Origin: an uncultured Chloroflexia bacterium
GTDB lineage: Bacteria; Chloroflexota; Limnocylindria; Limnocylindrales; CSP1-4
DNA: 64,000 nucleotides
Reading direction: 5' to 3'
Assembly (NCBI GenBank): GCA_963768655.1
Contig: CAVYIM010000005.1
Location: 96,001 to 160,000 of the forward strand
The notes under the pieces were generated by a model, which did not search any database, was not told the origin of the DNA, and saw only the letters and a list, made by a program, of their open reading frames with translations. The position numbers and the translations under genes are program-made. Numbering within the stretch: position 1 is the stretch's first letter; each line of letters opens with the position of its first letter. Positions 2,766-35,935 of this stretch are shown one piece after another.

Positions 2766-5700
2766 TCAACCTAGAGACAATGCCCGCCTCGGTTTGCCCG
2801 GCTCCGGCACCCATTCGCCCAGCGGGCGGACCTCCGCCAGACGCATGCGCAGGTCCGGGTCCAGCGCCTCGGCCGCGGCCACGGCCGTCTCGATGGCGGT
2901 CAGGCACAGGATCCCCTCGGCGGTGGCGGCGAGGCGGATCTCGGCCGCGTCGCGGACCGGGCCGGACTTCGGCGACGGCGTGTTGACCACGAGCCGCACC
3001 GAGCCGCCGGCGATGAGGTCCAGGATGGTGACCTGCCCGTCGCCGGCGTGCTCGCCCACCTTGGCCACGACCTGCGCCTCATGGCCCAGCCTGTGAAGCT
3101 CGGCTGCGGTGCCGGAGGTGGCGGCGAACCGGTAGCCAGCCCGAGCCAGGGCGGCGGCGACGCGCGGCAGCTCCTTCTTGTCCCGGTCCGCGACGGAGAT
3201 CAGCGCCAGCGCCCCGTCGGCGCCCGGCCGGGGCGGGATCAGCGCCGCGCCCTGCATCGCCTTGGCCAGCGCGACTCGCGGGTCGGCATGGATGCCGATG
3301 ACCTCGCCCGTGGACTGCATCCCCGGGCCGACGCTCGGGTCCACGCCGCGGAGCTTGGCGGTGGAGAAGGCCGGCGCCTTGACCGCGACCAGCGGCGGCG
3401 GCTCCAGCAGCCCATTACCCCACCCCATTGCGCGCAACGTCTCGCCCAGGGCAATCCGGACGGCCAGCTTGACCATCGGGACGCCGGTGACCTTGCTCAT
3501 GAACGGCACCGTGCGGCTGGCGCGCGGGTTGACCTCGATCAGGTACACGCCGTCGTCGCGGACGATGAACTGGGCGTTGACCAGGCCGTGGACGTCCAGC
3601 GCCCGCACGATCCGGTCCATCGCGGCGACGATCAGCTCCTGGTCGGGGACCGAGACCGTCTGCGGCGGGAACATCCCGACCGAGTCGCCAGAATGGACGC
3701 CGGCTCTCTCGACGTGTTCGAGCAGGCCCGGGATCAGGACCGACTCGCCGTCGGAGATCGCGTCGACGTCCACCTCGATGCCTTCGAGATAGCGGTCGAT
3801 CCGAACCGGCCGGTCGGGGTCGACGACGGTCGCGCGCGCCAGCTGCTCGACCAGATCGGACGGCGAATAGCTGAAGTCGATTGCCAGGCCGCCGATGACG
3901 AACGACGGTCGAACGATGACCGGGTAGCCGATCCGATCGGCCAGCGCCAGCGCTTCCTCGATCGAGCGCGCCATGCCGCCGTCGGGCTGCGGGATGCCGA
4001 CAGCCTCCACCAGGTTGGCGAAGCGGATGCGATCCTCCGCCTGGTCGATGGTCTCCAGGTTTGCGCCCAGGAGCGGGATACCGGCGGCCGCGAGCGACTC
4101 GGCCAGGTTGAGGGGCGTCTGGCCGCCGAACTGGACGAAGGCGCCGAGCGTCGGGCGGCCGTCCGGCGATTCGGCCTCCACGACCGAGCGAACGCTCTCC
4201 GGATCGAGCGGCTCGAAGTACAGCCGCGAGCTGGCGTCGAAGTCGGTCGAGACCGTCTCGGGGTTCGAGTTGATCATGACGGCCTGCCAGCCCCGTTCGC
4301 GCAACTCCGCCGCGGCCTGGACGGCGCAGTAGTCGAACTCGATCCCCTGCCCTATCCGGACCGGCCCGGAGCCGATGACCAGCGCCGCGGGCCGCTCCAC
4401 CGGCGGCAGCTCCGGCTCGGAGCCGCTGGCAGCGTACGTCGCGTAGAAGTACGGCGTCTCGGCCGCGAACTCCGCGGCGCACGTGTCCACCATCGCGTAG
4501 CCGGGCACAAGGCCGAGCTCCATTCGGGCGAGCCGCACCGCCTCGGCCGTCGCGCCCGGCCCCGCCATCGCCGCCAGCTCGCGGTCCCCGAAGCCGGCCC
4601 GCTTCACGGTCGCGAGGAGAGTGGCCGCCTCATCGTCCCGTGGCTCCGCGATCCGCGCCCCGGCCCGCCGGACCTCGCGCTCCAGCGCGATCGCCCGCTC
4701 GAACTCCCAGAGGAACCACGCCGAGATGCCGGTCACGCCTCGGATCCGCTCCGCCGGCATGCCCCGCCGCAGCAGCGCGAGGATCCGCCACAGCCGCGAG
4801 TCCGAGGGTGCGAGGAACCGCTTGAGCACGATCGGATACGCCATCCGCTCGGCGTGCGCCCTTGCCTCGCAGACCAGGCCGCTGGTATCGACCGTGACGA
4901 ACGCCGGCTCGGCGACCGCGGGCTCCATCAGGTAGTCGAGCGTCGCCTGCCAGCCGGCGTTCTCGGCCAGCCAGCCCGCGCCCGCCTGTTCGAGCGCGCG
5001 GAGGGCCTTGTTCAGCGCCGAGCCGAAGGTTCGGTCGATCGCCATCACCTCGCCGGTCGCCTTCATCTGGCTGCCGAGCGTTCGATCGGCATTGGGGAAC
5101 TTGTCGAACGGGAAGCGCGGCAGCTTGACGACGACGTAGTCGAGGGCCGGCTCGAAGGCCGCGACCGTCGTACCGGTCACGACATTGGGGATCTCCGCCA
5201 GCCGCCGGCCCGCGGCGATCTGGGCCGCAACGCGCGCGATCGGATAACCCGTCGCCTTGCTCGCGAGAGCGGAGGATCGGCTGACGCGCGGGTTGACCTC
5301 GATGACCGCGTATTCGGCGTAGTCCGGGCTCAGGGCGAACTGCACGTTGCAGCCGCCCTCCACGCCGAGCGCCCGAATGATCGCCAGGCTGGCCGAGCGC
5401 AGGCGCTGGTGGACAGGGTCGGGCAGCGTCTGGACCGGCGCGACGACGATCGAGTCGCCGGTGTGGATACCCAGCGGGTCGACGTTCTCCATCGAGCAGA
5501 CGGCGATGCAGGTATCGTCCGCGTCGCGCATGACCTCGTATTCGATCTCCTGCCAGCCCACCAGGCAGCGCTCGATCATGACCTGGTGGATGGGGCTGAG
5601 TCTCAGTCCCGTGCGCGTCCGCTCCCAGTACGCGTCCTCGGTCTCGACGATGCCGCCGCCGGTGCCGCCCAGGGTGAAGGCCGGCCGGATGATCGCCGGC

Positions 5701-6266
5701 AGGCCGATCTCCTGCAGGGCGCGGCGGGCCGCGGCGTCGCGCGCCTCATCGGTCTCACCTTCGACGATGTGGCTCGGCGCATACGGCTGGCCGATGCGGT
5801 CGAGCAGGTCGCGGAACAACTCGCGGTCCTCGGCCATCTCGATCGCCTCGAGCGGCGTGCCGATGAGCCGGACGTTGTACTTGTCCAGGACGCCGGCCTT
5901 GGCCAGCGCCACGGCCAGGTTCAGCCCGGTCTGGCCGCCGAGCCCGGCAAGCAGCCCCTCCGGCCGCTCTTTGGCGATGACCTGCTCGATCGCCTCGACC
6001 GTGAGCGGCTCGAGGTAGACGGCGTCGGCGACCTCGGCGTCGGTCATGATCGTGGCCGGGTTCGAGTTGACCAGGATCGTCCGCACGCCCTCAGCGCGGA
6101 GCGCCCGGCAGGCCTGCGTGCCGGCGTAGTCGAACTCGGCCGCCTGGCCGATGACGACCGGCCCGGAGCCGATGATCAGCGCACTCTTCGGCTTTGGCCG
6201 GTGCGCGCTCGGGGCCGGGTTCGCGGGCACGGGGTATGCGGTGGTCGGCAACGGCGGCTGCCTCAC
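2766..6266 (-). CDS. carB: Carbamoyl-phosphate synthase large subunit
   Basis: IGSGPVVIGQAAEFDYAG, two ATP-grasp halves (IEVNPRVSRSSALASKATG; IEVNPRASRTVPF), C-terminal MGS-like domain. Confidence 0.97.
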   Translation of the reverse strand: MRQPPLPTTAYPVPANPAPSAHRPKPKSALIIGSGPVVIGQAAEFDYAGTQACRALRAEGVRTILVNSNPATIMTDAEVADAVYLEPLTVEAIEQVIAKERPEGLLAGLGGQTGLNLAVALAKAGVLDKYNVRLIGTPLEAIEMAEDRELFRDLLDRIGQPYAPSHIVEGETDEARDAAARRALQEIGLPAIIRPAFTLGGTGGGIVETEDAYWERTRTGLRLSPIHQVMIERCLVGWQEIEYEVMRDADDTCIAVCSMENVDPLGIHTGDSIVVAPVQTLPDPVHQRLRSASLAIIRALGVEGGCNVQFALSPDYAEYAVIEVNPRVSRSSALASKATGYPIARVAAQIAAGRRLAEIPNVVTGTTVAAFEPALDYVVVKLPRFPFDKFPNADRTLGSQMKATGEVMAIDRTFGSALNKALRALEQAGAGWLAENAGWQATLDYLMEPAVAEPAFVTVDTSGLVCEARAHAERMAYPIVLKRFLAPSDSRLWRILALLRRGMPAERIRGVTGISAWFLWEFERAIALEREVRRAGARIAEPRDDEAATLLATVKRAGFGDRELAAMAGPGATAEAVRLARMELGLVPGYAMVDTCAAEFAAETPYFYATYAASGSEPELPPVERPAALVIGSGPVRIGQGIEFDYCAVQAAAELRERGWQAVMINSNPETVSTDFDASSRLYFEPLDPESVRSVVEAESPDGRPTLGAFVQFGGQTPLNLAESLAAAGIPLLGANLETIDQAEDRIRFANLVEAVGIPQPDGGMARSIEEALALADRIGYPVIVRPSFVIGGLAIDFSYSPSDLVEQLARATVVDPDRPVRIDRYLEGIEVDVDAISDGESVLIPGLLEHVERAGVHSGDSVGMFPPQTVSVPDQELIVAAMDRIVRALDVHGLVNAQFIVRDDGVYLIEVNPRASRTVPFMSKVTGVPMVKLAVRIALGETLRAMGWGNGLLEPPPLVAVKAPAFSTAKLRGVDPSVGPGMQSTGEVIGIHADPRVALAKAMQGAALIPPRPGADGALALISVADRDKKELPRVAAALARAGYRFAATSGTAAELHRLGHEAQVVAKVGEHAGDGQVTILDLIAGGSVRLVVNTPSPKSGPVRDAAEIRLAATAEGILCLTAIETAVAAAEALDPDLRMRLAEVRPLGEWVPEPGKPRRALSLG

Positions 6267-6319
6267 ACAAAAAGGCCACCGGCCGAGTTGGCGCGGTGGT
6301 TCTCATTGCAGGCGACCAT
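6263..6319 (-). CDS. Putative 18-aa leader peptide of carB (MVACNENHRANSAGGLFV)
   Basis: GGAGGAGG-TCC-ATG at 6319; TGA at 6265-6263 overlaps the carB GTG (GTGA); paralogous ORF upstream of carA. Confidence 0.6.
   Translation of the reverse strand: MVACNENHRANSAGGLFV
6269..6299 (-). terminator. Leader intrinsic terminator (attenuator) of carB
   Basis: CCACCGCGCC-AACTC-GGCCGGTGG hairpin followed by CCTTTTT on the minus strand. Confidence 0.7.
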
Positions 6320-6396
6320 GGACCTCCTCCCCGGCCTCACTGGACCGGTACGCCGGCCTCACAGGACCGGCCGCAAAGGCTGCCCGTAGGTTATCA
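6320..6396 (-). promoter_or_regulatory. Extended -10 promoter and tandem PyrR-binding loops upstream of carB
   Basis: TGATAACCT (6396-6388), CCTTT, CCGGTCCTGTGAGGCCGG (6370-6353) and CCGGTCCAGTGAGGCCGG (6348-6331). Both resemble the PyrR binding consensus ARUCCNGNGAGGYU. Confidence 0.85.
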
Positions 6397-7393
6397 CGAA
6401 GCCAAACGGGTACGTGAACCGCCCTGGGTTCCGTGGAGATCCGATGGGCGTCCGTCAACGAGACCCCGACCAGGTTTCGGCCTGACGTCCCGCGCTTGAG
6501 CGGCGGACCACGGCCGCAACTTCACTTGTCCTGACCGGCCACCGTCCGCTCGAGGGGAGTGGGGCAAACGAAAGTGCCATCCGCTACGTTGTTGTGTCAG
6601 AACTGAGAGCGGAACACCCCGGACGCGTTCCATGAGTGGAGCCTTGTCGCGTCCGGACTCCTCCATCCAGATGAGCCAGCCCCCGCGATCAGCCACGAAG
6701 TAACTGGAGTTGCCCTCGGTATCCACCTGGATCGGCGAAGACCAGCTCGGCTGCCAGACAGTCAAAGCATCAAGCCAGGAGTCGTAGTACGCCTCCCGTT
6801 GCCACCAGGCCACCGTGCCCGAGCCGCAGGCCATTCCATCGATTCCCTTCGATGGCCCATCGGCGGGGTCAGGGCTGATGGCCAGAGTCCTGGCATAGGG
6901 AGCGGCAGCCGCATACAGACTGGTCTGCGAACCACCCGGACGTCTGAGAGCTGGCCTGTGGATCCGCCACCCAGGCCGCCAGCGGACCCTCGGCATTGAC
7001 CTCATAGACCTCCTTGCCAATCTCCTGGGAGCCACTCAGAGGCGTCCAATGCCAGAGGTGCATCTGACCAATCGCGCCGCTATTTGGATCGCCCTTGCCA
7101 GTGGTGTATAGAACGCCGTCCGGCACAAGGGCAAAGTCGTACGGATCGCCGGTGAACCTGATCGTGTCCTGTAGGTTGCCGAGGATGTCCCGGATCTCTA
7201 TCTGCCACTTGCCGCTGGCCAAAGCCTCCAAGAGCGCTATCCGTTGGCCGTCGAACTTGATGCTGTCGAGGTACATTTGCCCGCCGTAGTTCGGCATACG
7301 GTCATGGGCCACCACACTCACTCTATGAGTCGTCAGGTTCATGTCTTTGAGCGACCAGGCAGTGACAGGATGCTGGTCACTGCTCCAGTCGTA

Positions 7394-8882
7394 GAGGATG
7401 TCCCGCTCGTCGTGGAATTTCAGTGAGGGTCGGGTCTCCAGGTTGCTGATCATATCGGTTGGTTGGTAGCGCTCGCCTCGCTTTCGATGTGGAGCTCGCG
7501 CTTCAGCGCAGCGGCAAGAATGGGCAGCTCCCGATAGCCACAGACTCGGCGGAACTGAGCCTCTGCGGCGAGCATCCCAGCGGCGGCCCAGCGCAGCGCC
7601 ATCTCGCCCGACTCCCAGTTCTTCACCCGGCGGGCGTGCGTCTTGACGATCTCGATCATCGATTCCATCGGGTTGGTCGACTCGAGCGTCCTCCAGAGCG
7701 AGCCGCTGATGCCCAGACGCGTCAGGGTGAGCGTGTCGTCGAGCCCCTCGCGCAGCGACGCGGCGGCTCCCGGACGGCTGTGGGCCAGACTGCGGGCCAG
7801 GGAGTGGAGGGCCGCCTTCGCCCTGTCCGGATCTCGCTCGGCCCAGGCGGCCCGAAGCCGGCGCTGGGCGAGCGGTCGTTCGATCTCGGGCAGGTGCTCT
7901 AGAACGTTGCGCTCTTTGTGGCGATGGCAGCGATGGATCGCCACGCCTTTGCCCAAGAAGGTGGGGATGGCCGAACCGATGGCGGAGCCGCCGTCGACGA
8001 CGAAGAGGACGCCTGCGCTTGTGTCCAGACCGCGATCGCGCAAGTCCGCCAGGAGCGCGTTGACCACCGCGCTGTTCTCGGTCGTGCCCTCGACCACGCC
8101 GAGGGGCACCTTGTGGCCGGCGGCGTCGATCCCGAGCGCGCCTACGAGCAGGTGATCGCCCAGGCGAAAGCCATCGAGCATGAGCACGAGGTAGCGGCGG
8201 TCGTCGAGTCTGCGCCCGAGCAGCTCAGCCAGGCGCTCTGCCGTGGCGGCGAGGAAGCGGCGGCTGACGGCGGCGTGGCTGGTCGAGACGGCGGCCTCCT
8301 CGATGGCCTCGCCAACAGGCTCGAGGCCAACCGGATAGTCGCGAGTCGAGAGCCCCGCGAGCATCCGGGCGACGATCCCGTCGGCGAGCAGATCGCTGGC
8401 TCTCGCGGCCTCGTAGGTCGCGAGCGGCAGCTCGGCTGCTCCATCGGCACTTCGCACACGTGGCCGCTCGACGCGGAGTCGGCGGCCGCCCAGGGTCACG
8501 GTTCCGGCTTCACTGCCATGGCGATAGGCAACTCGATCCGCTCGGTGGCGGCCGCGTGGGCCGGCCAGGCCGTCAACCTCAGCCGCCATCAGCTCGTCGA
8601 GGACCTCGAGGCCGACCGCGGTCGAAGCGGCCAGCAGGCCCTCGCGCAGATGGCTCGCGAACGTGGCGAGATGGCCCTCGAGCCGCCCTGTCAGCTCAGC
8701 AGGAAGCTGGTGAACGAGACGGCGAGGTCGGCGGCATCGCTTCTCAGGGCGGGGCCGGACGTGGGACGATGGCATGGGTTCCTCCAGTTCGACTTTCCGG
8801 GTCTCCCGTAGCGTGACAGCTCACGCTCCGGGCTGGAGGACCCTCCCCTCAACTCAAATTCCACGGAACTCGGGACAACCTC
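7394..8882 (-). mobile_element. IS256-family insertion sequence, copy 1 (1489 bp)
   Basis: Imperfect terminal IRs (GAGGTTGTCCCGAGTTCCGTGGAATTTGAGT / GAGGATGTCCCGCTCGTCGTGGAATTTCAGT); 8-bp TSD CAGTCGTA at 7386-7393 and 8883-8890. Confidence 0.95.
7450..8775 (-). CDS. IS256-family (Mutator) DDE transposase
   Basis: GLSTRDY, LMLDG, VVDGG, HRCHRHKERN and STNPMES motifs. Confidence 0.95.
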   Translation of the reverse strand: MPSSHVRPRPEKRCRRPRRLVHQLPAELTGRLEGHLATFASHLREGLLAASTAVGLEVLDELMAAEVDGLAGPRGRHRADRVAYRHGSEAGTVTLGGRRLRVERPRVRSADGAAELPLATYEAARASDLLADGIVARMLAGLSTRDYPVGLEPVGEAIEEAAVSTSHAAVSRRFLAATAERLAELLGRRLDDRRYLVLMLDGFRLGDHLLVGALGIDAAGHKVPLGVVEGTTENSAVVNALLADLRDRGLDTSAGVLFVVDGGSAIGSAIPTFLGKGVAIHRCHRHKERNVLEHLPEIERPLAQRRLRAAWAERDPDRAKAALHSLARSLAHSRPGAAASLREGLDDTLTLTRLGISGSLWRTLESTNPMESMIEIVKTHARRVKNWESGEMALRWAAAGMLAAEAQFRRVCGYRELPILAAALKRELHIESEASATNQPI

Positions 8883-9422
8883 CAGTCGTACACATCCTCG
8901 ACCCAGAGGAGGTGGTCGCCCGCTAGCTGCGGCGACCATATCCCGACCCTCGTTCCCTCAGCCGCAGAGGCCTGATACACGACTGCGACCGTTCCCTTCT
9001 GCAGATCTCCATACCAGAGATCGGCCTCGTGATCGGCATCGCGGGCGTCGAAGGCGACCAGGGAGCCATCGTTCGTCAGATCAAGGATCTGGGGGTCGGC
9101 CAATGGGCCTATGTTCCAGCATGCATCGGAGCCCAATGGAATCGACACTTTCTGGAAGACATAGGTGGGGTCAGGCGAGTCGCCACGCGAGTCGCCACAC
9201 CGGGCGCCAGCGGAGGCTGTGGGGAACCCGGTCGCGGAAGCGCCAGGAGTCGCGGTGGCGACAGAGGTCGCGGAAGCGGCTGGCGGGGGCGAGGCGGTGG
9301 GTCGCAGCCCGGACCCACAGGCTGAGACAAGGAAAACGATGGCGAGGGCGCTGACCTTCACCCCGGGCTGCATGTGCAAGGTCTGCCCCGCCCCGGGCGG
9401 ACCTGCAACCCAAAGCCTGGCC

Positions 9423-9590
9423 GGCGAAGCCCGCCAGGAGCGGTGAGCCTGCGATCCCTGCCGTCCCGGCGCTTCAGCTGCGAGCCGACCGCGGAGACGA
9501 AGAAGAGCGCGCCTGCCGTCGGTCCAACGGCAGCCGGCCGCCGCTTTCGGCCGAAGGCCAACCGGTCGCCGAAGGCCGTCTCGTCCGCCG
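9423..9590. repeat. Dispersed island repeat, copy A
   Basis: Collinear blocks shared with 10500-10670 and 12336-12465; core ATCCCTGNNNTCCCGGCGCTTC at 9454-9475. Confidence 0.7.
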
Positions 9591-9702
9591 GCCGGAATCA
9601 TCTTCGCGACTCCAGCTAAGCTCGCCATTCGCGGCCCGAAAAGCTCGTTGCTCCAGGTCACCAGGAAGCATCCCGGCTCCCGATGATTCCCGCCAGATCT
9701 CC

Positions 9703-10013
9703 TCACGCCGCAGACCCAGTCCACGGCCAATCTTCGTGAGTTCGCCGGCCAACCGGCTCTGTGCGACCTCGGTGTCGTGAGCCGCCTGGGCGCGGAGCCA
9801 GTAGCCATCTGACAGACCGAAGAACCGGCACAGCCGAAGGTCGGTGTCCGCGGTGATCGACCGCCTGCCGGCCACGATTTCGCCAATTCGCTGAGCGGGA
9901 ACGCCGATCTCCTTAGCTAGTCGGTACTGTGAGATGCCCATCGGGCGCAGGAACTCCTGCAGCAGCAACTCACCCGGAGTCACCGGGGGCAATGTCGTCG
10001 TCATCTTCGTCAC
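9703..10013 (-). CDS. higA: HigA-family antitoxin (HTH); the 3' end appears frameshifted
   Basis: PGELLLQEFLRPMGISQYRLA...ITADTDLRL...YWLRAQ. Adding one base near 9728 gives a typical end (KI.PWTGSAA-TGA at 9703); as assembled the frame runs to 9474. Confidence 0.85.
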
Positions 10014-10016
10014 GTC

Positions 10017-10295
10017 CTAGTGGTAGTCCACGATCTCGACGCCCTCGGCGCCAGCAGCAGTCCAGCGAAAGCAAACGCGATACTGATCGTTGATGCGGAT
10101 GCTGTACTGGCCAGAACGATCGCCTTTGAGCGCCTCGAGGCGGTTTCCAGGAGGAACCCGCAGGTCGTCGAGCCGAGCGGCGATCTCGAGCTGTCTGAGC
10201 TTGCGCCGAGCGACCGACTCGATGGCGACGAAACGCTGCACTCGACTTCCGCGTGCGAGGGCTTCCGTGTCGGCATCCCTGAACGAGGCGATCAC
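10017..10295 (-). CDS. higB: HigB/RelE-family toxin (plasmid killer type)
   Basis: DLRVPPGNRLEALKGDRSGQYSIRINDQYRVCFRW...EIVDYH; directly upstream of higA. Confidence 0.93.
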   Translation of the reverse strand: MIASFRDADTEALARGSRVQRFVAIESVARRKLRQLEIAARLDDLRVPPGNRLEALKGDRSGQYSIRINDQYRVCFRWTAAGAEGVEIVDYH

Positions 10296-10301
10296 GTCGG
10301 G

Positions 10302-10337
10302 ATAGTAACGCTACGCGTGCATAACGGCAAGCGTGAC
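10302..10337 (-). promoter_or_regulatory. higBA promoter with two putative HigA operators
   Basis: TTGCCG-N17-TACTAT then 6 nt to GTG; imperfect palindromes GTAACG-N5-CGTGCA (10305) and ATAACG-N5-CGTGAC (10321) overlap it. Confidence 0.6.
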
Positions 10338-10499
10338 TAACGAGCCGACGCGGCGTCAGCGCCGAAGGCCGTCGCCCGCCGGACAGGTTCGAAGTGACTG
10401 GCCGCTTCTGCCGTCCGGACCAGTTGGTCCCACGGGGATGGCCGTGGTATGCGACCGCATAGCCCCCGATCGTAGGGACGAGGTTGCTCGGCCACGGGG

Positions 10500-10670
10500 C
10501 GGTGAAGCTGGCCCGCAGTGATGAGAGGACAATCCCTGTCGTCCCGGCGCTTCGACTCCGGGCGGGCCGCGGAGGTGATCGAGCGAGCCGCGACGTCGGT
10601 CCAACCGCCTCCTGCCGTCCTGTCGGGCCGAAGGTCAGTCGGTGGCCGGAGGGCGTCCGCCGAAGGCCCT
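10500..10670. repeat. Dispersed island repeat, copy B
   Basis: CGGTGAAGCTGGCC 10500-10513, core 10532-10553, CGTCGGTCCAAC 10594-10605, CGCCGAAGGCC 10658-10668. Confidence 0.7.
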
Positions 10671-10797
10671 TCCGTCGGACCAATTCGCCGCTTCTGCGAC
10701 ACTCCCCTCCCGTGGCCGGCGTGGTCAGGTAGTTGAGAGAAAGTCCTACATGGTGCGCACCGCGACTACCCCGCCGGGCGCTTCCCCTCCGCTCTCG

Positions 10798-11978: not shown

Positions 11979-12254
11979 TCAGTCGAGCCCGAGCCGGTGC
12001 CTGGCATCCTCCAGCGACAGCTCGCGATCCTCCTCGAGGTCGAACAGGCCGGCGAGGACGGACCTCATGAACTCGCGCTCTTCCTCCGCGGCCTCGAACT
12101 CGGGCAGGGTCTGCACGACCGCGACGCCCCGACCGCGGCTCGTCAACAGGACCGGGCGGCCCGACTCGCCAGCCCGCCGCACGACTCTGCCAGGGTTCAC
12201 CTTCAGATCCCCGATCGGGACCACGTCCTCGGAGAACTTCACCCTGGTCCGCAT
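11979..12254 (-). CDS. Phd/YefM-family antitoxin
   Basis: DVVPIGDLK.NPGRVV...RPVLLTSRGRGVAVV; SD GGAGG before ATG 12254. Confidence 0.9.
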   Translation of the reverse strand: MRTRVKFSEDVVPIGDLKVNPGRVVRRAGESGRPVLLTSRGRGVAVVQTLPEFEAAEEEREFMRSVLAGLFDLEEDRELSLEDARHRLGLD

Positions 12255-12335
12255 CCGGACCTCCATACAGCACCTTTTGCTGGTCCTGAGAATAGCACCT
12301 GGTGGCAGGTTTTCGCGGATCTGGAGAGCCGCCTA

Positions 12336-12465
12336 CGGTGAAGCTGGCCAGGGCGGAGATCAAGCGATCCCTGCAATCCCGGCGCTTCGGCTCCGTGCGG
12401 ACCTCGGAGGTGGAGGTCGGCGTGCAGGCGGCGGTCCTGCGGCATCCGGGGGTCCTTTCGGCCTC
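12336..12465. repeat. Dispersed island repeat, copy C (cut at its end by IS copy 2)
   Basis: CGGTGAAGCTGGCC 12336-12349, core 12367-12388, CCTCGGAG 12402-12409. Confidence 0.65.
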
Positions 12466-13954
12466 GAGGTTGTCCCGAGTTCCGTGGAATTTGAGTTGAG
12501 GGGAGGGTCCTCCAGCCCGGAGCGTGAGCTGTCACGCTACGGGAGACCCGGAAAGTCGAACTGGAGGAACCCATGCCATCGTCCCACGTCCGGCCCCGCC
12601 CTGAGAAGCGATGCCGCCGACCTCGCCGTCTCGTTCACCAGCTTCCTGCTGAGCTGACAGGGCGGCTCGAGGGCCATCTCGCCACGTTCGCGAGCCATCT
12701 GCGCGAGGGCCTGCTGGCCGCTTCGACCGCGGTCGGCCTCGAGGTCCTCGACGAGCTGATGGCGGCTGAGGTTGACGGCCTGGCCGGCCCACGCGGCCGC
12801 CACCGAGCGGATCGAGTTGCCTATCGCCATGGCAGTGAAGCCGGAACCGTGACCCTGGGCGGCCGCCGACTCCGCGTCGAGCGGCCACGTGTGCGAAGTG
12901 CCGATGGAGCAGCCGAGCTGCCGCTCGCGACCTACGAGGCCGCGAGAGCCAGCGATCTGCTCGCCGACGGGATCGTCGCCCGGATGCTCGCGGGGCTCTC
13001 GACTCGCGACTATCCGGTTGGCCTCGAGCCTGTTGGCGAGGCCATCGAGGAGGCCGCCGTCTCGACCAGCCACGCCGCCGTCAGCCGCCGCTTCCTCGCC
13101 GCCACGGCAGAGCGCCTGGCTGAGCTGCTCGGGCGCAGACTCGACGACCGCCGCTACCTCGTGCTCATGCTCGATGGCTTTCGCCTGGGCGATCACCTGC
13201 TCGTAGGCGCGCTCGGGATCGACGCCGCCGGCCACAAGGTGCCCCTCGGCGTGGTCGAGGGCACGACCGAGAACAGCGCGGTGGTCAACGCGCTCCTGGC
13301 GGACTTGCGCGATCGCGGTCTGGACACAAGCGCAGGCGTCCTCTTCGTCGTCGACGGCGGCTCCGCCATCGGTTCGGCCATCCCCACCTTCTTGGGCAAA
13401 GGCGTGGCGATCCATCGCTGCCATCGCCACAAAGAGCGCAACGTTCTAGAGCACCTGCCCGAGATCGAACGACCGCTCGCCCAGCGCCGGCTTCGGGCCG
13501 CCTGGGCCGAGCGAGATCCGGACAGGGCGAAGGCGGCCCTCCACTCCCTGGCCCGCAGTCTGGCCCACAGCCGTCCGGGAGCCGCCGCGTCGCTGCGCGA
13601 GGGGCTCGACGACACGCTCACCCTGACGCGTCTGGGCATCAGCGGCTCGCTCTGGAGGACGCTCGAGTCGACCAACCCGATGGAATCGATGATCGAGATC
13701 GTCAAGACGCACGCCCGCCGGGTGAAGAACTGGGAGTCGGGCGAGATGGCGCTGCGCTGGGCCGCCGCTGGGATGCTCGCCGCAGAGGCTCAGTTCCGCC
13801 GAGTCTGTGGCTATCGGGAGCTGCCCATTCTTGCCGCTGCGCTGAAGCGCGAGCTCCACATCGAAAGCGAGGCGAGCGCTACCAACCAACCGATATGATC
13901 AGCAACCTGGAGACCCGACCCTCACTGAAATTCCACGACGAGCGGGACATCCTC
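12466..13954 (+). mobile_element. IS256-family insertion sequence, copy 2 (1489 bp)
   Basis: Same IRs, length and transposase as copy 1; 8-bp TSD TCGGCCTC at 12458-12465 and 13955-13962. Confidence 0.95.
12573..13898 (+). CDS. IS256-family transposase
   Basis: Protein identical to that of 7450..8775. Confidence 0.95.
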   Translation: MPSSHVRPRPEKRCRRPRRLVHQLPAELTGRLEGHLATFASHLREGLLAASTAVGLEVLDELMAAEVDGLAGPRGRHRADRVAYRHGSEAGTVTLGGRRLRVERPRVRSADGAAELPLATYEAARASDLLADGIVARMLAGLSTRDYPVGLEPVGEAIEEAAVSTSHAAVSRRFLAATAERLAELLGRRLDDRRYLVLMLDGFRLGDHLLVGALGIDAAGHKVPLGVVEGTTENSAVVNALLADLRDRGLDTSAGVLFVVDGGSAIGSAIPTFLGKGVAIHRCHRHKERNVLEHLPEIERPLAQRRLRAAWAERDPDRAKAALHSLARSLAHSRPGAAASLREGLDDTLTLTRLGISGSLWRTLESTNPMESMIEIVKTHARRVKNWESGEMALRWAAAGMLAAEAQFRRVCGYRELPILAAALKRELHIESEASATNQPI

Positions 13955-13974
13955 TCGGCCTCGGCCGGTCCCCG

Positions 13975-15850: not shown

Positions 15851-17110
15851 TCACCCCATCCCGCGCAGTCGCCTCGCCAGCTCGGCCGCGTCGAGGTGGA
15901 CCGGCTCGACTCTGCCGACCGTCGGTTCGGGCGCCGTGCCGCCGTGCCGGGCCCGCGCAGCGGAGACGAATCGGTCGAAGACCGCCAGCGCGTCGAGCGG
16001 TCCGGGACCGCCCTCCGGGTGGTATTGCACCGTCTCGATCGGAAGCGTGCGGTGGCGCAGCCCCTCCACCGATCCGTCGTTCAGGTCGATCTGGCTGACC
16101 ACGAAGCCGCTGGCTTCGGGCAGCGTCTCACCGACCACCGTGACCTCGTGGTTCTGAGCCGTGACCTGGACCAGGCCGCTCTCCAGGTCCTTGACCGGGT
16201 GGTTCGCGGCGTGGTGGCCGAACGGCAGGCGCCTCGTGCTTGCGCCGGCGGCCCGCCCGACGATCTGATGTCCCAGGCAGATGCCCAGGAGCGGCCGGCC
16301 GTCGCTGATTGCCGCGCGGGCCAGCGCCACGGGGCCGTCGAGGCGGGCCGGGTCGCCGGGTCCGGGCGAGAAGACGACGCCGTCCACATCCGGGCCGAGC
16401 GCCTCCGCCGCCGTGGCCGTGTGAGGGAGGATCCGCACCCGCGCCCCGCGCCGGCGAAGGCTGCGCACGATGTTCGTCTTCAGGCCGAAGTCGAGAATCA
16501 CGACAAGCGGGCCGCCCTCGGACGGATCGCCTTCGTCGCGCGCGACCGTGGGCGAAACTTCGGCTACGAAGTCCTGATCCTCCCATCGGGGAACCTTGCG
16601 GGCCAGCTCGCGCGCCTCCTGCGGGTCGGCCTGGCCGGGCGCGGTCACGATGGCGCGCAGGCTGCCGCTCGAGCGGAGGTGCCGGGCCAGGGCTCGAGTG
16701 TCGACGCCGGCGATCGCCGGGATGCCCGCCTCGCGCAGCATCGTCGCGAGCTGGCGGGCGTCGTCGAGAACCGCGGCGGTGGCGTTGGCCACGATCAGGC
16801 CCCGCAGCCACGGCCGCTCTGACTGGTCGTCGTAGCGGACGCGGCCGTAGTTGCCGATCAGCGGGTAGGTCATTACGACGAGCTGCCCGGCGTAGCTGGG
16901 ATCGGTGGCGATCTCCTGGTAGCCGGTCTGGCTGGTGTTCACAACGAGGTCGCCCTGTCCGGAGCGCTGCGAGCCGAAGGCGACGCCCGGGAACAGGCGG
17001 CCGTCCTCCAGGGCGAGAAGCGCCGGGCCGTAGTCTCCGATCCGCGGATCGACGACGGCGCTGGCCCGCGGCGGCGGAGGCAGCAGGCGCGTGCGTGGCG
17101 GCTCGGTCAC
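15851..17110 (-). CDS. carA: Carbamoyl-phosphate synthase small subunit
   Basis: TGYQEIATDPSYAGQ, SPGPGDP, GICLGHQ, QYHPEG. Start placed at GTG 17110, which overlaps the leader stop. Confidence 0.95.
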   Translation of the reverse strand: MTEPPRTRLLPPPPRASAVVDPRIGDYGPALLALEDGRLFPGVAFGSQRSGQGDLVVNTSQTGYQEIATDPSYAGQLVVMTYPLIGNYGRVRYDDQSERPWLRGLIVANATAAVLDDARQLATMLREAGIPAIAGVDTRALARHLRSSGSLRAIVTAPGQADPQEARELARKVPRWEDQDFVAEVSPTVARDEGDPSEGGPLVVILDFGLKTNIVRSLRRRGARVRILPHTATAAEALGPDVDGVVFSPGPGDPARLDGPVALARAAISDGRPLLGICLGHQIVGRAAGASTRRLPFGHHAANHPVKDLESGLVQVTAQNHEVTVVGETLPEASGFVVSQIDLNDGSVEGLRHRTLPIETVQYHPEGGPGPLDALAVFDRFVSAARARHGGTAPEPTVGRVEPVHLDAAELARRLRGMG

Positions 17111-17280
17111 GTGCCGCCCCGGCGTGCGACTACGAAGCGGCCGACCGGAGTGGACGCGGCGACCAGGCGCGCGGCAACGACGCGGCCGGCCCGACTTAGT
17201 GCGACGACGACGCGGCGCGCGGCGCCGACAAAAAAGCCACCGGCCGAACTGGCGCGGTGGTTCTCGTCGCAGGCGACCAT
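17107..17280 (-). CDS. Putative 57-aa leader peptide of carA (MVACDENHRASSAGGFFVGAA...RRGGT)
   Basis: AAGGAGG-TCC-ATG at 17280; open to TGA 17109-17107, which overlaps the carA GTG (GTGA). Confidence 0.6.
   Translation of the reverse strand: MVACDENHRASSAGGFFVGAARRVVVALSRAGRVVAARLVAASTPVGRFVVARRGGT
17230..17261 (-). terminator. Leader intrinsic terminator (attenuator) of carA
   Basis: CCACCGCGCC-AGTTC-GGCCGGTGG hairpin followed by CTTTTTT. Confidence 0.75.
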
Positions 17281-17355
17281 GGACCTCCTTCCCGGCCTCT
17301 CTGGACCGGCCCGCCGGCCTCACAGGACCGGCCAAAGGCTGGGCGTAGGTTAGCA
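17281..17355 (-). promoter_or_regulatory. Extended -10 promoter and tandem PyrR-binding loops upstream of carA
   Basis: TGCTAACCT (17355-17347), CCTTT, CCGGTCCTGTGAGGCCGG (17331-17314) and CCGGTCCAGAGAGGCCGG (17309-17292). Confidence 0.85.
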
Positions 17356-35860: not shown

Positions 35861-35935
35861 TGGTGAGCCCGCAGGGATTCGAACCCTGAACCTAGGGATT
35901 AAGAGTCCCCCGCTCTACCGTTGAGCTACGGGCCC
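35861..35935 (-). tRNA. tRNA-Lys(CTT)
   Basis: GGGCCCG TAGCTCAACGGTAGAGC, anticodon arm GGGGA-CT-CTT-AA-TCCCT, T-loop GGTTCGAATCC, encoded CCA. Confidence 0.96.

What the first reader, a model, noticed from the sequence alone, without database searches (positions are those of the whole stretch)
6263..6396. Twin PyrR-binding loops controlling a leader ORF that is coupled to carB (same design at carA)
Seen: both car leaders (6263-6396 and 17107-17355) share the same order. It runs TGnTAACCT promoter, CCUUU, two adjacent hairpins CCGGUCC(U/A)G(U/A)GAGGCCGG, a strong SD plus ATG, a leader ORF starting MVACxENHRAxSAGG(L/F)FV that passes through a U-tailed terminator, and a TGA overlapping the car GTG. 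The GTGA overlap is kept although the ORFs differ in length (18 vs 57 aa), which suggests selection. Established: Bacillus PyrR binds one such loop per leader and acts via an antiterminator; Mycobacterium uses SD occlusion; a PyrR-controlled leader ORF was proposed in Thermus. Inference: PyrR-UMP binds both loops and locks CCUUU onto the leader SD, so the untranslated terminator forms and coupled re-initiation at car is lost. I do not know of a described leader combining twin loops, leader ORF, terminator and coupling.
Basis: partly seen in the sequence, partly recalled or inferred. Interest (0 to 1): 0.87.

Follow-up and report, generated by a model that had tools for sequence, protein, structure and literature searches.

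The report
Twin-loop PyrR leaders before carA, carB
Two near-identical control regions sit in front of the two carbamoyl-phosphate synthetase genes of an uncultured Chloroflexota bacterium, and they most likely let the pyrimidine sensor protein PyrR switch both genes off by blocking translation of a tiny upstream reading frame.

Summary
On the minus strand, carB (2766-6266) and carA (15851-17110) each carry a leader made of these parts, in order:
- a TGnTAACCT -10-like box
- CCUUU
- two 18-nt hairpins, CCGGUCC(U/A)G(U/A)GAGGCCGG
- a Shine-Dalgarno (SD) site and ATG
- a leader ORF of 18 or 57 aa that runs through a GC hairpin followed by a U5-6 tail
- a TGA that overlaps the car GTG

The genome has a pyrR gene. 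Its own leader uses one variant loop and a 7-codon mini-ORF that overlaps the pyrR ATG.

The design is conserved in the genus. In 24 of 24 distinct leaders the ORF ends in NTGA on the downstream start, although lengths range from 18 to 57 aa. In 28 of 28 the terminator stem starts exactly 20 nt after the ATG. Twin loops occur in 90 of 137 sampled genomes of the family and in almost none of the sister families.

Best reading: PyrR binds the loops and clamps the CCUUU:SD helix, so the leader ORF is not translated. The terminator then forms, and coupled initiation at car is lost.

No binding or expression data exist. As I recall it, a Thermus model already combines a PyrR box, a leader ORF and a terminator. 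I therefore rate this a new variant of a known kind, of moderate interest.

The parts
6388..6396 (-). carB leader: extended -10-like box TGATAACCT
   Evidence: Read. TGnTAACCT, or TGnTAnnnT in other genera, sits at about the same distance upstream of hairpin 1 in the leaders printed. The consensus scanner found no -35/-10 promoter, so this part is inferred.
6375..6379 (-). carB leader: anti-SD CCUUU
   Evidence: RNAfold pairs it with GGAGG of the SD with probability 0.96-0.99. The Rfam PyrR consensus has the same CCUUu/AAGG lower stem (alignment).
6353..6370 (-). carB leader: PyrR-type hairpin 1, CCGGUCCUGUGAGGCCGG
   Evidence: Stem covariation across 63 leaders.
6331..6348 (-). carB leader: PyrR-type hairpin 2, CCGGUCCAGUGAGGCCGG
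6323..6330 (-). carB leader: Shine-Dalgarno GGAGGAGG of the leader ORF
   Evidence: Conserved as GGAGGAG or AAGGAGG in 24 of 24 genus leaders.
6263..6319 (-). carB leader ORF, 18 codons plus TGA (MVACNENHRANSAGGLFV)
   Evidence: Its TGA (6265-6263) overlaps the carB GTG (6266-6264).
6269..6299 (-). carB leader: intrinsic-terminator-like hairpin (6299-6276) and U5 tail (6273-6269), inside the leader ORF
   Evidence: RNAfold gives -16.4 kcal/mol. It is one of 23 hairpin+T5 sites in the genome. The simple scanner did not call it.
2766..6266 (-). carB, carbamoyl-phosphate synthase large subunit, read from the GTG that overlaps the leader stop
   Evidence: NF003671 1332 bits, TIGR01369 1297 bits. 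Pfam domains. In-frame TTG and GTG codons 15 and 36 nt downstream could also serve as starts.
17347..17355 (-). carA leader: extended -10-like box TGCTAACCT
   Evidence: Conserved in relatives. Not called by the scanner.
17334..17338 (-). carA leader: anti-SD CCUUU
   Evidence: pairs with the SD; the listed register has probability about 0.45.
17314..17331 (-). carA leader: PyrR-type hairpin 1
   Evidence: The Rfam PyrR model aligns its binding loop here (21.5 bits, below the cut-off).
17292..17309 (-). carA leader: PyrR-type hairpin 2, CCGGUCCAGAGAGGCCGG
17284..17290 (-). carA leader: Shine-Dalgarno AAGGAGG
17107..17280 (-). carA leader ORF, 57 codons plus TGA
   Evidence: Its TGA (17109-17107) overlaps the carA GTG (17110-17108).
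17230..17260 (-). carA leader: terminator-like hairpin (17260-17237) and U6 tail (17235-17230)
   Evidence: -16.4 kcal/mol. The Rfam PyrR model aligns its terminator here.
15851..17110 (-). carA, carbamoyl-phosphate synthase small subunit
   Evidence: TIGR01368 366.6 bits. No other ATG, GTG or TTG lies in frame between 17110 and the conserved ALLALEDG.

Best explanation
These are two paralogous PyrR-responsive leaders that combine translation-dependent transcription attenuation with translational coupling.

Transcription starts just downstream of the TGnTAACCT box. The 5' end of the RNA folds into two PyrR-type hairpins. These are closed by a short helix between CCUUU and the Shine-Dalgarno (SD) site of a short leader ORF.

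When pyrimidine nucleotides are plentiful, PyrR binds the loops and stabilises this closing helix. PyrR may bind as two dimers or as one higher oligomer. No ribosome then loads on the leader ORF. The GC hairpin plus U-tract that lies inside the ORF forms, and RNA polymerase terminates. Any read-through transcript lacks a ribosome arriving at the car start, which has no good SD of its own.

When PyrR is free, a ribosome opens the weak closing helix and translates the leader close behind the polymerase. It melts the 5' arm of the terminator, which begins 20 nt after the ATG, and stops at the UGA that overlaps the car GUG. It then re-initiates on carB or carA.

Shown here: the sequence elements, their conservation, the frame maintenance, and the presence of pyrR. 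Inferred: PyrR binding, the direction of the response, termination, and coupling.
For: 1. The loops match the PyrR binding loop. Both car leaders carry GUCCNGNGAGGC, and carA hairpin 2 reads GUCCAGAGAGGC, the same 12 letters as the Rfam RF00515 consensus AGUCCaGaGAGGCU.

2. A pyrR gene is present (NF003549, 250 bits) and is followed by pyrB. A loose genome-wide loop scan gave 66 filtered hits. By my reading only the four car hairpins and the pyrR leader look like real sites.

3. The hairpins are supported by covariation. On 63 leaders the two-hairpin fold has 97.7% of cells paired, with 7 pairs and 19 cells changed on both sides. 0 of 500 shuffles reached this. Leaders with unlike stems in the two hairpins (L044, L078) fit two independent hairpins.

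4. The leader ORF looks selected.
- 24 of 24 distinct genus leaders have an SD and ATG, and an ORF that ends in TGA overlapping GTG (15), ATG (8) or TTG (1). Lengths are 18 aa (18 leaders), 20, 26, 33, 33, 49 and 57 aa.
- L027 shifts frame in the terminator loop and still ends on GTGA.
- Eight variant leaders from genomes without the exact pattern keep a start (ATG or TTG), the terminator and the NTGA.
- The other two frames carry a stop in 14 of 28 and 16 of 28 leaders.
- In other genera of the class, by my reading, 20 of 28 separate leader ORFs of unrelated peptide sequence end in NTGA on carA. Five more end in TGA followed at once by GTG. Three are unclear.

5. The terminator is conserved. 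28 of 28 genus leaders have a hairpin of -13.7 to -20.1 kcal/mol and a U-rich tail, and the stem starts exactly 20 nt after the ATG. Only 23 such hairpin+T5 sites exist in the genome. In the minimum-energy fold of the carB leader the terminator and the loop domain fold independently, with no competing antiterminator. RNA alone would therefore always terminate.

6. The same logic appears at pyrR. One variant loop and a GAAGGAG SD are followed by a 6-7-codon mini-ORF. Its start is ATG (7), GTG (10) or TTG (10), and its TGA overlaps the pyrR ATG in 27 of 28 genus genomes.

7. The closing helix is marginal in the two-hairpin fold. It adds only -2.2 to -2.6 kcal/mol, the kind of helix a bound protein could lock and a ribosome could open.
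Against: - There is no experimental or expression evidence. Public runs held only short contigs of relatives.
- The Rfam PyrR model scores 21.5 bits against a cut-off of 54 at carA, and gives nothing at carB.
- RNA-only folding pairs CCUUU with the SD even without protein: probability 0.96-0.99 at carB, and mean P(unpaired) of the SD 0.26-0.41. The model does not itself predict an SD-open state.
- The twin region can also fold as one long hairpin without PyrR loops. That fold is as stable (-20.2 against -19.9 kcal/mol) and has a stronger closing helix (-25.7 against -22.1). It is also compatible with the alignment: 96.6% paired, 9 cells changed on both sides.
- Timing is tight. The U-tract ends only 53 nt after the ATG, so a ribosome must load and move while the polymerase covers about 40 nt, and no separate pause site is evident.
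- The SD-ATG spacing is short in the commonest version.
- The consensus scanner called neither a promoter nor a terminator.
- In other genera only 17 of 29 leaders have a hairpin with a T-rich tail, so termination is not a universal part of the design.
- carB has alternative in-frame starts downstream of the overlap.
Confidence: 0.6

Rival explanations
1. The control is purely translational. PyrR occludes the leader SD, and car translation depends on coupling to the leader ORF. The hairpin and U-run inside the ORF are not a regulated terminator. They might be a structure that keeps the car start silent without an arriving ribosome, a stability element, or a pause site.
For: The pyrR leader of the same genome uses a loop, an SD, a mini-ORF and an ATGA overlap with no terminator. 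12 of 29 leaders in other genera have no hairpin with a T-rich tail yet keep the twin loops, leader ORF and overlap. The time window for a ribosome to catch the polymerase is short (U-tract 53 nt after the ATG).
Against: In this genus the hairpin is always followed by 5-6 U (28 of 28) in a 68.6% GC genome with only 121 T>=5 runs. That is hard to explain without termination. The stem position relative to the ATG is invariant.
Confidence: 0.17
2. The leader works as a Bacillus-type RNA switch without translation. PyrR binding stabilises an anti-antiterminator, and without PyrR an antiterminator helix competes with the terminator. The leader ORF is then a by-product of conserved RNA structure.
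For: The Rfam Firmicutes model aligns a binding loop and a terminator in the carA leader in the right order. The conserved part of the peptide is explained by the terminator stem.
Against: No alternative helix that competes with the terminator appears in the minimum-energy or centroid fold of the carB leader. The model part that holds the antiterminator is unaligned, and the score is 21.5 bits against a cut-off of 54. This reading does not explain the conserved SD and start codon (ATG/TTG), the frame kept over 18-57 codons, or the NTGA overlap in 24 of 24 leaders.
Confidence: 0.05
3. The leader senses UTP as in E. coli pyrBI, and PyrR is secondary. Low UTP slows the polymerase at U-runs so that the leader ribosome catches up and prevents termination.
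For: A leader ORF that runs through a terminator with a U-run is the pyrBI layout (recalled knowledge). The tight timing argues for some pause.
Against: The only U-run is the terminator tail itself. No U-rich pause region precedes the hairpin. The conserved twin PyrR-type loops and the SD pairing would be unexplained. This may add to the PyrR control rather than replace it.
Confidence: 0.08
4. The hairpins bind a factor other than PyrR, or act as protein-free structure.
For: Binding was not tested. The full Rfam model is below its threshold.
Against: The loop sequence equals the PyrR consensus. The loops occur only at carA, carB and pyrR in this genome. In other phyla the same twin loops sit directly on the pyrR SD (L052, L143, L044).
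Confidence: 0.03

Closest known systems
Thermus strain ZO5 pyr operon leader (Van de Casteele et al. 1997, J Bacteriol). Recalled; the paper is not held and I saw nothing of it.
   Same: As recalled, a PyrR-box at the ribosome-binding site of a short leader ORF, with an intrinsic terminator inside that ORF. The proposal was that PyrR blocks leader translation so that the terminator forms.
   Different: Here there are two (sometimes three) loops in a junction closed by anti-SD:SD. The leaders sit on carA and carB, not on the pyrR operon. The leader stop overlaps the structural gene start in every relative examined. The phylum is Chloroflexota. I could not fetch a Thermus sequence to compare directly.
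Bacillus subtilis pyr attenuators / Rfam RF00515 PyrR binding site
   Same: The same loop sequence GUCCAGAGAGGC and the same CCUUU...AAGG lower stem, followed by an intrinsic terminator, upstream of pyrimidine genes including the CPSase genes (alignment; the rest recalled).
   Different: Bacillus has one loop per attenuator, and the switch is RNA against RNA (antiterminator and anti-antiterminator) with no leader ORF. Here the score is 21.5 bits against a cut-off of 54, no antiterminator is predicted, and a translated ORF appears to take its place.
Mycobacterium smegmatis pyrR translational repression (Fields and Switzer 2007). Recalled; not held.
   Same: The PyrR hairpin includes the SD, so binding occludes the ribosome-binding site.
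   Different: There the occluded SD belongs to the first structural gene itself. Here it belongs to a leader ORF that passes the signal on by termination and by coupling. The Acidobacteriaceae record (L052) and the Tsukamurella-titled record that resembles it (L143) show the direct form, but with twin loops.
E. coli pyrBI attenuator (recalled)
   Same: A leader ORF runs through a terminator, and a ribosome close behind the polymerase prevents termination.
   Different: In E. coli the signal is UTP-sensitive pausing, with no RNA-binding protein and no SD occlusion.
Leader-gene re-initiation in bacteria (Korolev et al. 2016, PMC4833913; I saw the abstract and passages)
   Same: Short leader ORFs that end next to a structural gene start are proposed to feed ribosomes to it.
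   Different: That survey excluded leader ORFs that overlap the structural gene and did not treat PyrR. Chloroflexi were too few to assess.

Membership tests
PyrR binding site (Rfam RF00515) | Terminal loop and upper stem with the consensus AGUCCAGAGAGGCU | tested here: met
   All four hairpins carry GUCCNGNGAGGC. carA hairpin 2 is GUCCAGAGAGGC.
PyrR binding site (Rfam RF00515) | Score at or above the family's gathering threshold (54 bits) | tested here: not met
   21.5 bits, E 1.1, at carA 17228-17341. No match up to E 10 at carB. The whole-genome best is the same 21.5 bits.
PyrR binding site (Rfam RF00515) | Lower stem CCUUU/AAAGG flanking the binding hairpin | tested here: met
   CCUUU pairs with (G)GAGG or GAAGG of the SD, but the helix encloses two hairpins instead of one (model consensus).
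PyrR binding site (Rfam RF00515) | Antiterminator helix that competes with the terminator when PyrR is absent | tested here: not met
   No competing helix appears in the minimum-energy or centroid fold of the carB leader. The model's middle part is unaligned. This is a limited test, by energy model only.
PyrR regulon | pyrR gene present in the genome | tested here: met
   L008:1474-2046 matches NF003549 at 250 bits (cut-off 138) and is followed by pyrB.
PyrR regulon | Sites lie upstream of pyrimidine biosynthesis genes | tested here: met
   carA, carB and pyrR-pyrB.
PyrR regulon | PyrR protein binds the RNA in a UMP/UTP-dependent way | not testable with these tools
   No protein-RNA tool is on hand.
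Thermus-type PyrR / leader-ORF attenuator (recalled definition) | PyrR box adjoining the SD of a short leader ORF | tested here: met
   Hairpin 2 ends directly at the SD in both leaders.
Thermus-type PyrR / leader-ORF attenuator (recalled definition) | Intrinsic terminator embedded in the leader ORF | tested here: met
   A hairpin of -16.4 kcal/mol with U5-6 lies at codons 7-18. Conserved in 28 of 28 genus leaders.
Thermus-type PyrR / leader-ORF attenuator (recalled definition) | Sequence homology to the Thermus leader | not tested
   No Thermus sequence could be fetched.
Translational coupling by stop-start overlap | The upstream ORF stop overlaps the downstream start (NUGA), conserved in relatives | tested here: met
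   24 of 24 genus leaders and 8 variant leaders. 20 of 28 in other genera, plus 5 with TGA-GTG adjacency. At pyrR, 27 of 28.
Translational coupling by stop-start overlap | Downstream translation depends on upstream translation | not testable with these tools
   This needs reporter fusions.
E. coli pyrBI-type UTP-sensitive attenuation | U-rich pause region upstream of the attenuator hairpin | tested here: not met
   No U-run lies between the ATG and the hairpin.

The most novel reading that the evidence does not exclude
The two (or three) adjacent PyrR loops form a multi-way junction that is clamped cooperatively by a PyrR oligomer. One binding event would then close the leader SD and set two outputs at once: transcription termination inside the leader ORF, and ribosome delivery to the car start. 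This would give a steep, two-layer pyrimidine switch on the only carbamoyl-phosphate synthetase found in the assembly. The module can be copied. It was duplicated, together with the first codons of the gene, when carA and carB were separated in this genus.
Probability: 0.35. Interest if true: 0.65.

Novelty: new variant of a known kind. Interest (0 to 1): 0.5.

Why it matters
PyrR is a textbook RNA-binding regulator with two proven modes: the Bacillus RNA switch and mycobacterial SD occlusion. A third mode, the Thermus leader ORF, has been proposed. This locus gives that third mode a large natural data set. Dozens of independent leaders keep the frame, the start codon and the stop-start overlap of the leader ORF, and this is comparative evidence that the ORF is translated.

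The locus also shows a tandem-loop form of the PyrR site that none of my six searches of the held library turned up (the primary PyrR papers are not held). That form raises a testable question: does PyrR bind cooperatively?

It also shows how an uncultured soil and peat Chloroflexota lineage keeps two unlinked subunit genes of one enzyme co-regulated, namely by duplicating a compact leader module.

The only CPSase found in this 88.6%-complete assembly appears to be under pyrimidine control. This raises the question of how the arginine demand for carbamoyl phosphate is met.

Tried and rejected
- **Rfam scans.** At gathering thresholds the whole window gave only a tRNA. E-value scans of both leaders gave a sub-threshold PyrR hit at carA and a meaningless Sr006 hit at carB.
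- **Consensus scanner.** It found no promoter or terminator sites at either leader.
- **Public sequencing runs.** The best holders had at most 0.20 of the sampled words. I laid three RNA-library runs and one DNA run, all kept as contigs. The laid pieces were short and came from relatives. They covered 5600-6413 and nothing beyond 6414, in DNA and RNA runs alike. This says nothing about a start, an end or transcription.
- **Pairing of the terminator 3' arm with the proline codons after the car start.** The idea was a conserved second structure. Duplex energies were not better than composition-matched shuffles (mean z -0.67 over 27 leaders), so I rejected it.
- **The alternative single long hairpin for the twin region.** It is not excluded by energy or by the alignment. 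It is disfavoured only by leaders whose two stems differ (L044, L078) and by weaker covariation (9 against 19 cells).
- **The leader peptide as a functional small protein.** Rejected, because only the terminator-encoded residues are conserved.
- **Literature.** Six full-text searches found no description of tandem PyrR loops or of a PyrR leader ORF at car genes. The key papers (Turnbough and Switzer 2008, Van de Casteele 1997, Fields and Switzer 2007, Bonner 2001) are not held. What I say of them is recalled. Supplements were not consulted.
- **Caveats on counts.**
Most non-Chloroflexota hits were tandem coding repeats.
  - In one search, L036 duplicates L024, so 24 distinct leaders came from 25 loci.
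  - In one search, 2 of 30 loci were dropped: one had Ns and one failed the anchor.
  - In one search the triple-loop L024 was left out of the 64 listed.
  - The three inner pairs of each hairpin were fixed by the search pattern, so only the outer pairs carry information.
  - Frame breaks further inside the car genes occur in some relatives (L027 and L038; L022 and L033 have early stops). They may be assembly errors.
Full report
**What is there.** The finding lies on the minus strand.

carB is ORF 2766-6266 (NF003671, 1332 bits). carA is ORF 15851-17110 (TIGR01368, 367 bits). The two genes are about 9.6 kb apart. Each is preceded by the same series of elements.

carB leader:
- TGATAACCT 6396-6388
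- CCTTT 6379-6375
- hairpins CCGGTCCTGTGAGGCCGG 6370-6353 and CCGGTCCAGTGAGGCCGG 6348-6331, joined by CGTA
- GGAGGAGG 6330-6323
- ATG 6319
- an 18-codon ORF, MVACNENHRANSAGGLFV
- within the ORF, the hairpin CCACCGCGCC..GGCCGGTGG (6299-6276) and TTTTT (6273-6269)
- TGA 6265-6263, which overlaps the first in-frame start of carB, GTG 6266-6264

carA leader:
- The same order from 17355 to 17230.
- Its ORF then runs on for 57 codons, to TGA 17109-17107 over GTG 17110-17108.

The two leaders are 92% identical in aligned columns up to the U-tract. The repeat finder gives 87% over 121 nt.

**Is it more than chance?**
- The 18-mer hairpin pattern has 4 hits in the window against 0.05 expected.
- The 14-mer core has 6 hits in the 3.37-Mb genome, and 4 of them are here.
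- The genome is 68.6% GC. It has only 121 runs of five or more T on both strands, and 23 follow a hairpin of -12 kcal/mol or better. Two of those 23 are the leader hairpins, at -16.4 kcal/mol each.
- Negative results: the simple promoter and terminator scanner called nothing at either leader. The Rfam PyrR model reaches only 21.5 bits (cut-off 54) at carA and nothing at carB.
- The sub-threshold alignment is still informative. It places the model's binding loop on hairpin 1 and the model's terminator on the leader hairpin and U-tract. It also shows that the loop letters equal the family consensus.

**The regulator.** The genome encodes PyrR (L008:1474-2046; NF003549 at 250 bits, cut-off 138), directly followed by pyrB.

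The pyrR leader has one variant loop (CCGGCACGGTGAGGCCGG), preceded by CCTTT and followed by GAAGGAGG. A 7-codon mini-ORF (MRGSENR) follows, and its TGA overlaps the pyrR ATG.

In 28 genus genomes analysed (30 loci, 2 dropped), the mini-ORF start is ATG in 7, GTG in 10 and TTG in 10. The ATGA overlap is kept in 27 of the 28. In the remaining one the mini-ORF is fused in frame to pyrR.

A loose genome-wide scan for loops flanked by anti-SD-like and SD-like motifs gave 66 filtered hits. By my reading only the car and pyrR sites look real.

Only one carB and one carA score above cut-off in this 88.6%-complete assembly.

**Who has it.** Record titles of close matches name Chloroflexota MAGs, mostly 'Candidatus Limnocylindrales/Limnocylindria' or 'Chloroflexia'.

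In a sample of 401 genomes of the class, excluding the window's own genome, the twin-loop pattern is found as follows:
- own family: 90 of 137
- small-genome sister family: 0 of 16
- two other families: 0 of 92 and 1 of 153 (the single hit is an unlike sequence, probably chance)
- a fifth family: 0 of 2
- reversed-pattern control: no hits

Two copies per genome are largely confined to the window's genus. Elsewhere there is usually one copy, at carA.

Within the genus, genomes that lack the exact pattern still carry variant leaders. G001, G017, G022 and G153 do; G019 gave no match. The variants have three hairpins, or a 38-nt extra hairpin inserted between the two loops. G005 has three perfect loops in tandem.

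- An Armatimonadetes MAG (L044) has twin loops with different stems, then a 28-codon leader ORF through a strong terminator, then GTGA onto pyrR.
- An Acidobacteriaceae record (L052) and a record titled Tsukamurella that looks just like it (L143) have twin loops and an SD directly on pyrR.
- A MAG titled Anaerolineaceae (L154) has the car design.
- A Kribbella record (L078) has twin loops with unclear downstream coding.

**Evidence that the hairpins are real.** I aligned 63 leaders.
- The two-hairpin fold has 97.7% of cells paired. 7 of 13 pairs and 19 cells show changes on both sides. 0 of 500 shuffles reached this, and slid controls reach at most 49% paired.
- Three inner pairs per hairpin were fixed by the search pattern, so only the outer pairs count.
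- A single long hairpin is also compatible. It pairs the 5' arm of hairpin 1 with the 3' arm of hairpin 2, and the inner arms with each other. It gives 96.6% paired and 9 cells changed on both sides.
- That fold is as stable in the energy model: -20.2 against -19.9 kcal/mol.
- Leaders whose two stems differ (L044, L078) favour two independent hairpins. The order of transcription also favours them.

**Evidence that the leader ORF is translated and coupled.**
- All 24 distinct genus leaders from the first scan have an SD and ATG. Their ORFs end in TGA overlapping GTG (15), ATG (8) or TTG (1) of the downstream frame.
- Lengths are 18 aa in 18 leaders, and 20, 26, 33, 33, 49 and 57 aa in the others.
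- The longer ones carry unrelated insertions after the U-tract, yet stay in frame.
- L027 has one extra base in the terminator loop, reads the 3' arm in another frame, and still ends on the GTGA of carA.
- The other two frames over the same span contain a stop in 14 and 16 of 28 leaders.
- The downstream frame runs from the overlapping start into recognisable carA or carB N-terminal motifs in 22 of the 23 car-linked leaders. L038 breaks frame just before the motif. L029 has a 142-codon ORF inserted before carB.
- In other genera the leader peptides are unrelated (MSAHALAHH.., MLVRMPA..) and 17-35 codons long. By my reading, 20 of 28 end in NTGA on carA, 5 end in TGA followed at once by GTG, and 3 are unclear.
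- Start codons vary among ATG, GTG and TTG.
- The peptide itself is conserved only where it encodes the terminator stem, so the act of translation, not the product, appears to be selected.

**The terminator.** In 28 of 28 genus leaders a hairpin of -13.7 to -20.1 kcal/mol is followed by a U-rich tail. Its 5' arm starts exactly 20 nt after the A of the ATG. An initiating ribosome would therefore just miss it, and one that has moved a few codons would melt it. The minimum-energy fold of the carB leader shows no competing antiterminator; the carA leader fold is not more stable than its shuffles (z 0.22). In other genera only 17 of 29 leaders have a hairpin with a T-rich tail. Termination is thus a strong feature of this genus but not of the whole family.

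**The SD helix.** The energy model pairs CCUUU with the SD even without protein. The probability is 0.96-0.99 at carB and about 0.45 for one register at carA. Mean P(unpaired) over the SD is 0.26-0.41. In the two-hairpin fold this closing helix adds only -2.2 to -2.6 kcal/mol. That is weak enough for a ribosome to open, and plausible for a bound protein to lock. This is the least secure step. The RNA alone does not show an SD-open state, and the direction of control (PyrR represses) rests on analogy with all known PyrR systems.

**Most likely mechanism, and what is known.** The most likely mechanism is PyrR-gated translation of a leader ORF, which in turn decides termination and delivers ribosomes to car. 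I put this at about 0.6.
- It works like the model proposed for the Thermus ZO5 pyr operon (recalled; the paper is not held).
- It borrows the loop and lower stem of the Bacillus site.
- It uses the SD occlusion shown in mycobacteria (recalled).

What seems new:
- the tandem (two to three) loops in a junction closed by anti-SD:SD
- the strict stop-start overlap
- the use at carA and carB, with a module that was duplicated, including the first codons (V-K/R-Q-P-P) of both genes
- the lineage

Six full-text searches found no description of tandem PyrR loops. The primary PyrR literature and its supplements could not be read, so priority cannot be excluded.

**Verdict.** The feature is real and conserved. 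It is almost certainly a PyrR-regulated pyrimidine control element. It is a new variant of a known kind and of moderate interest (0.5).

Noticed in passing
window 7393-8885 and 12463-13955: Two 1493-nt inverted copies, 100% identical, each encoding a 441-aa Mutator/IS256-family transposase (PF00872). They flank 3.6 kb between carA and carB, a layout like a composite transposon. In relatives the carA and carB leaders are 4-16 kb apart.
   Followed up: partly
G000:C4 about 411,740-411,820 (L008:1410-1480): The pyrR leader has a single variant PyrR loop, a GAAGGAGG SD and a 7-codon mini-ORF whose TGA overlaps the pyrR ATG. The overlap is kept in 27 of 28 genus genomes, with the mini-ORF start alternating among ATG, GTG and TTG. 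No terminator is seen.
   Followed up: yes
L024 (G005), L191 (G001), L194 (G153), L192 and L195-L198: The number of hairpins varies. G005 has three perfect PyrR loops in tandem. G001 carA and G153 carA have three hairpins, some of them degenerate. Several carB leaders carry a 38-nt unrelated hairpin inserted between the two loops.
   Followed up: partly
L044 (Armatimonadetes MAG), L052 (Acidobacteriaceae), L143 (titled Tsukamurella sp. 1534): Twin PyrR-type loops occur in other phyla at pyrR itself. L044 has a 28-codon leader ORF through a -25 kcal/mol terminator that ends GTGA on pyrR. In L052 and L143 the SD after the loops serves pyrR directly. L143 closely resembles the Acidobacteriaceae record, so its title may be wrong.
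   Followed up: partly
L029 (G016), L193 and L197 (G022): In some relatives the leader stop overlaps the start of a different ORF, inserted ahead of carB or in place of it. In L029 this is a 142-aa hydrophobic-looking protein.
   Followed up: no
window 6245-6266 and relatives (first codons of carA and carB): Both car genes begin with similar proline-rich extensions that the family models do not cover: V-K/R-Q-P-P-F/L-P in this genus and V-I-V-P-P-P-P in others. The homology between the carA and carB leaders in relatives extends into these codons. Polyproline directly after a re-initiation site might matter for translation. I did not test this.
   Followed up: no
whole genome G000: Only one carA and one carB score above cut-off in the 88.6%-complete assembly. 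The CPSase that must also supply arginine synthesis therefore seems to be under pyrimidine (PyrR-type) control.
   Followed up: partly
window 8849-9886, 9970-10683 and about 12239-12574: ORFs with no Pfam or NCBIfam match share 64-78-nt segments at 67-75% identity (repeat families D2 and D6). They are paralogous genes of unknown function, two of them inside the IS-flanked segment and the third just outside its boundary.
   Followed up: no
window 35864-35935 (-): A tRNA gene, the only Rfam match above gathering score in the window.
   Followed up: no
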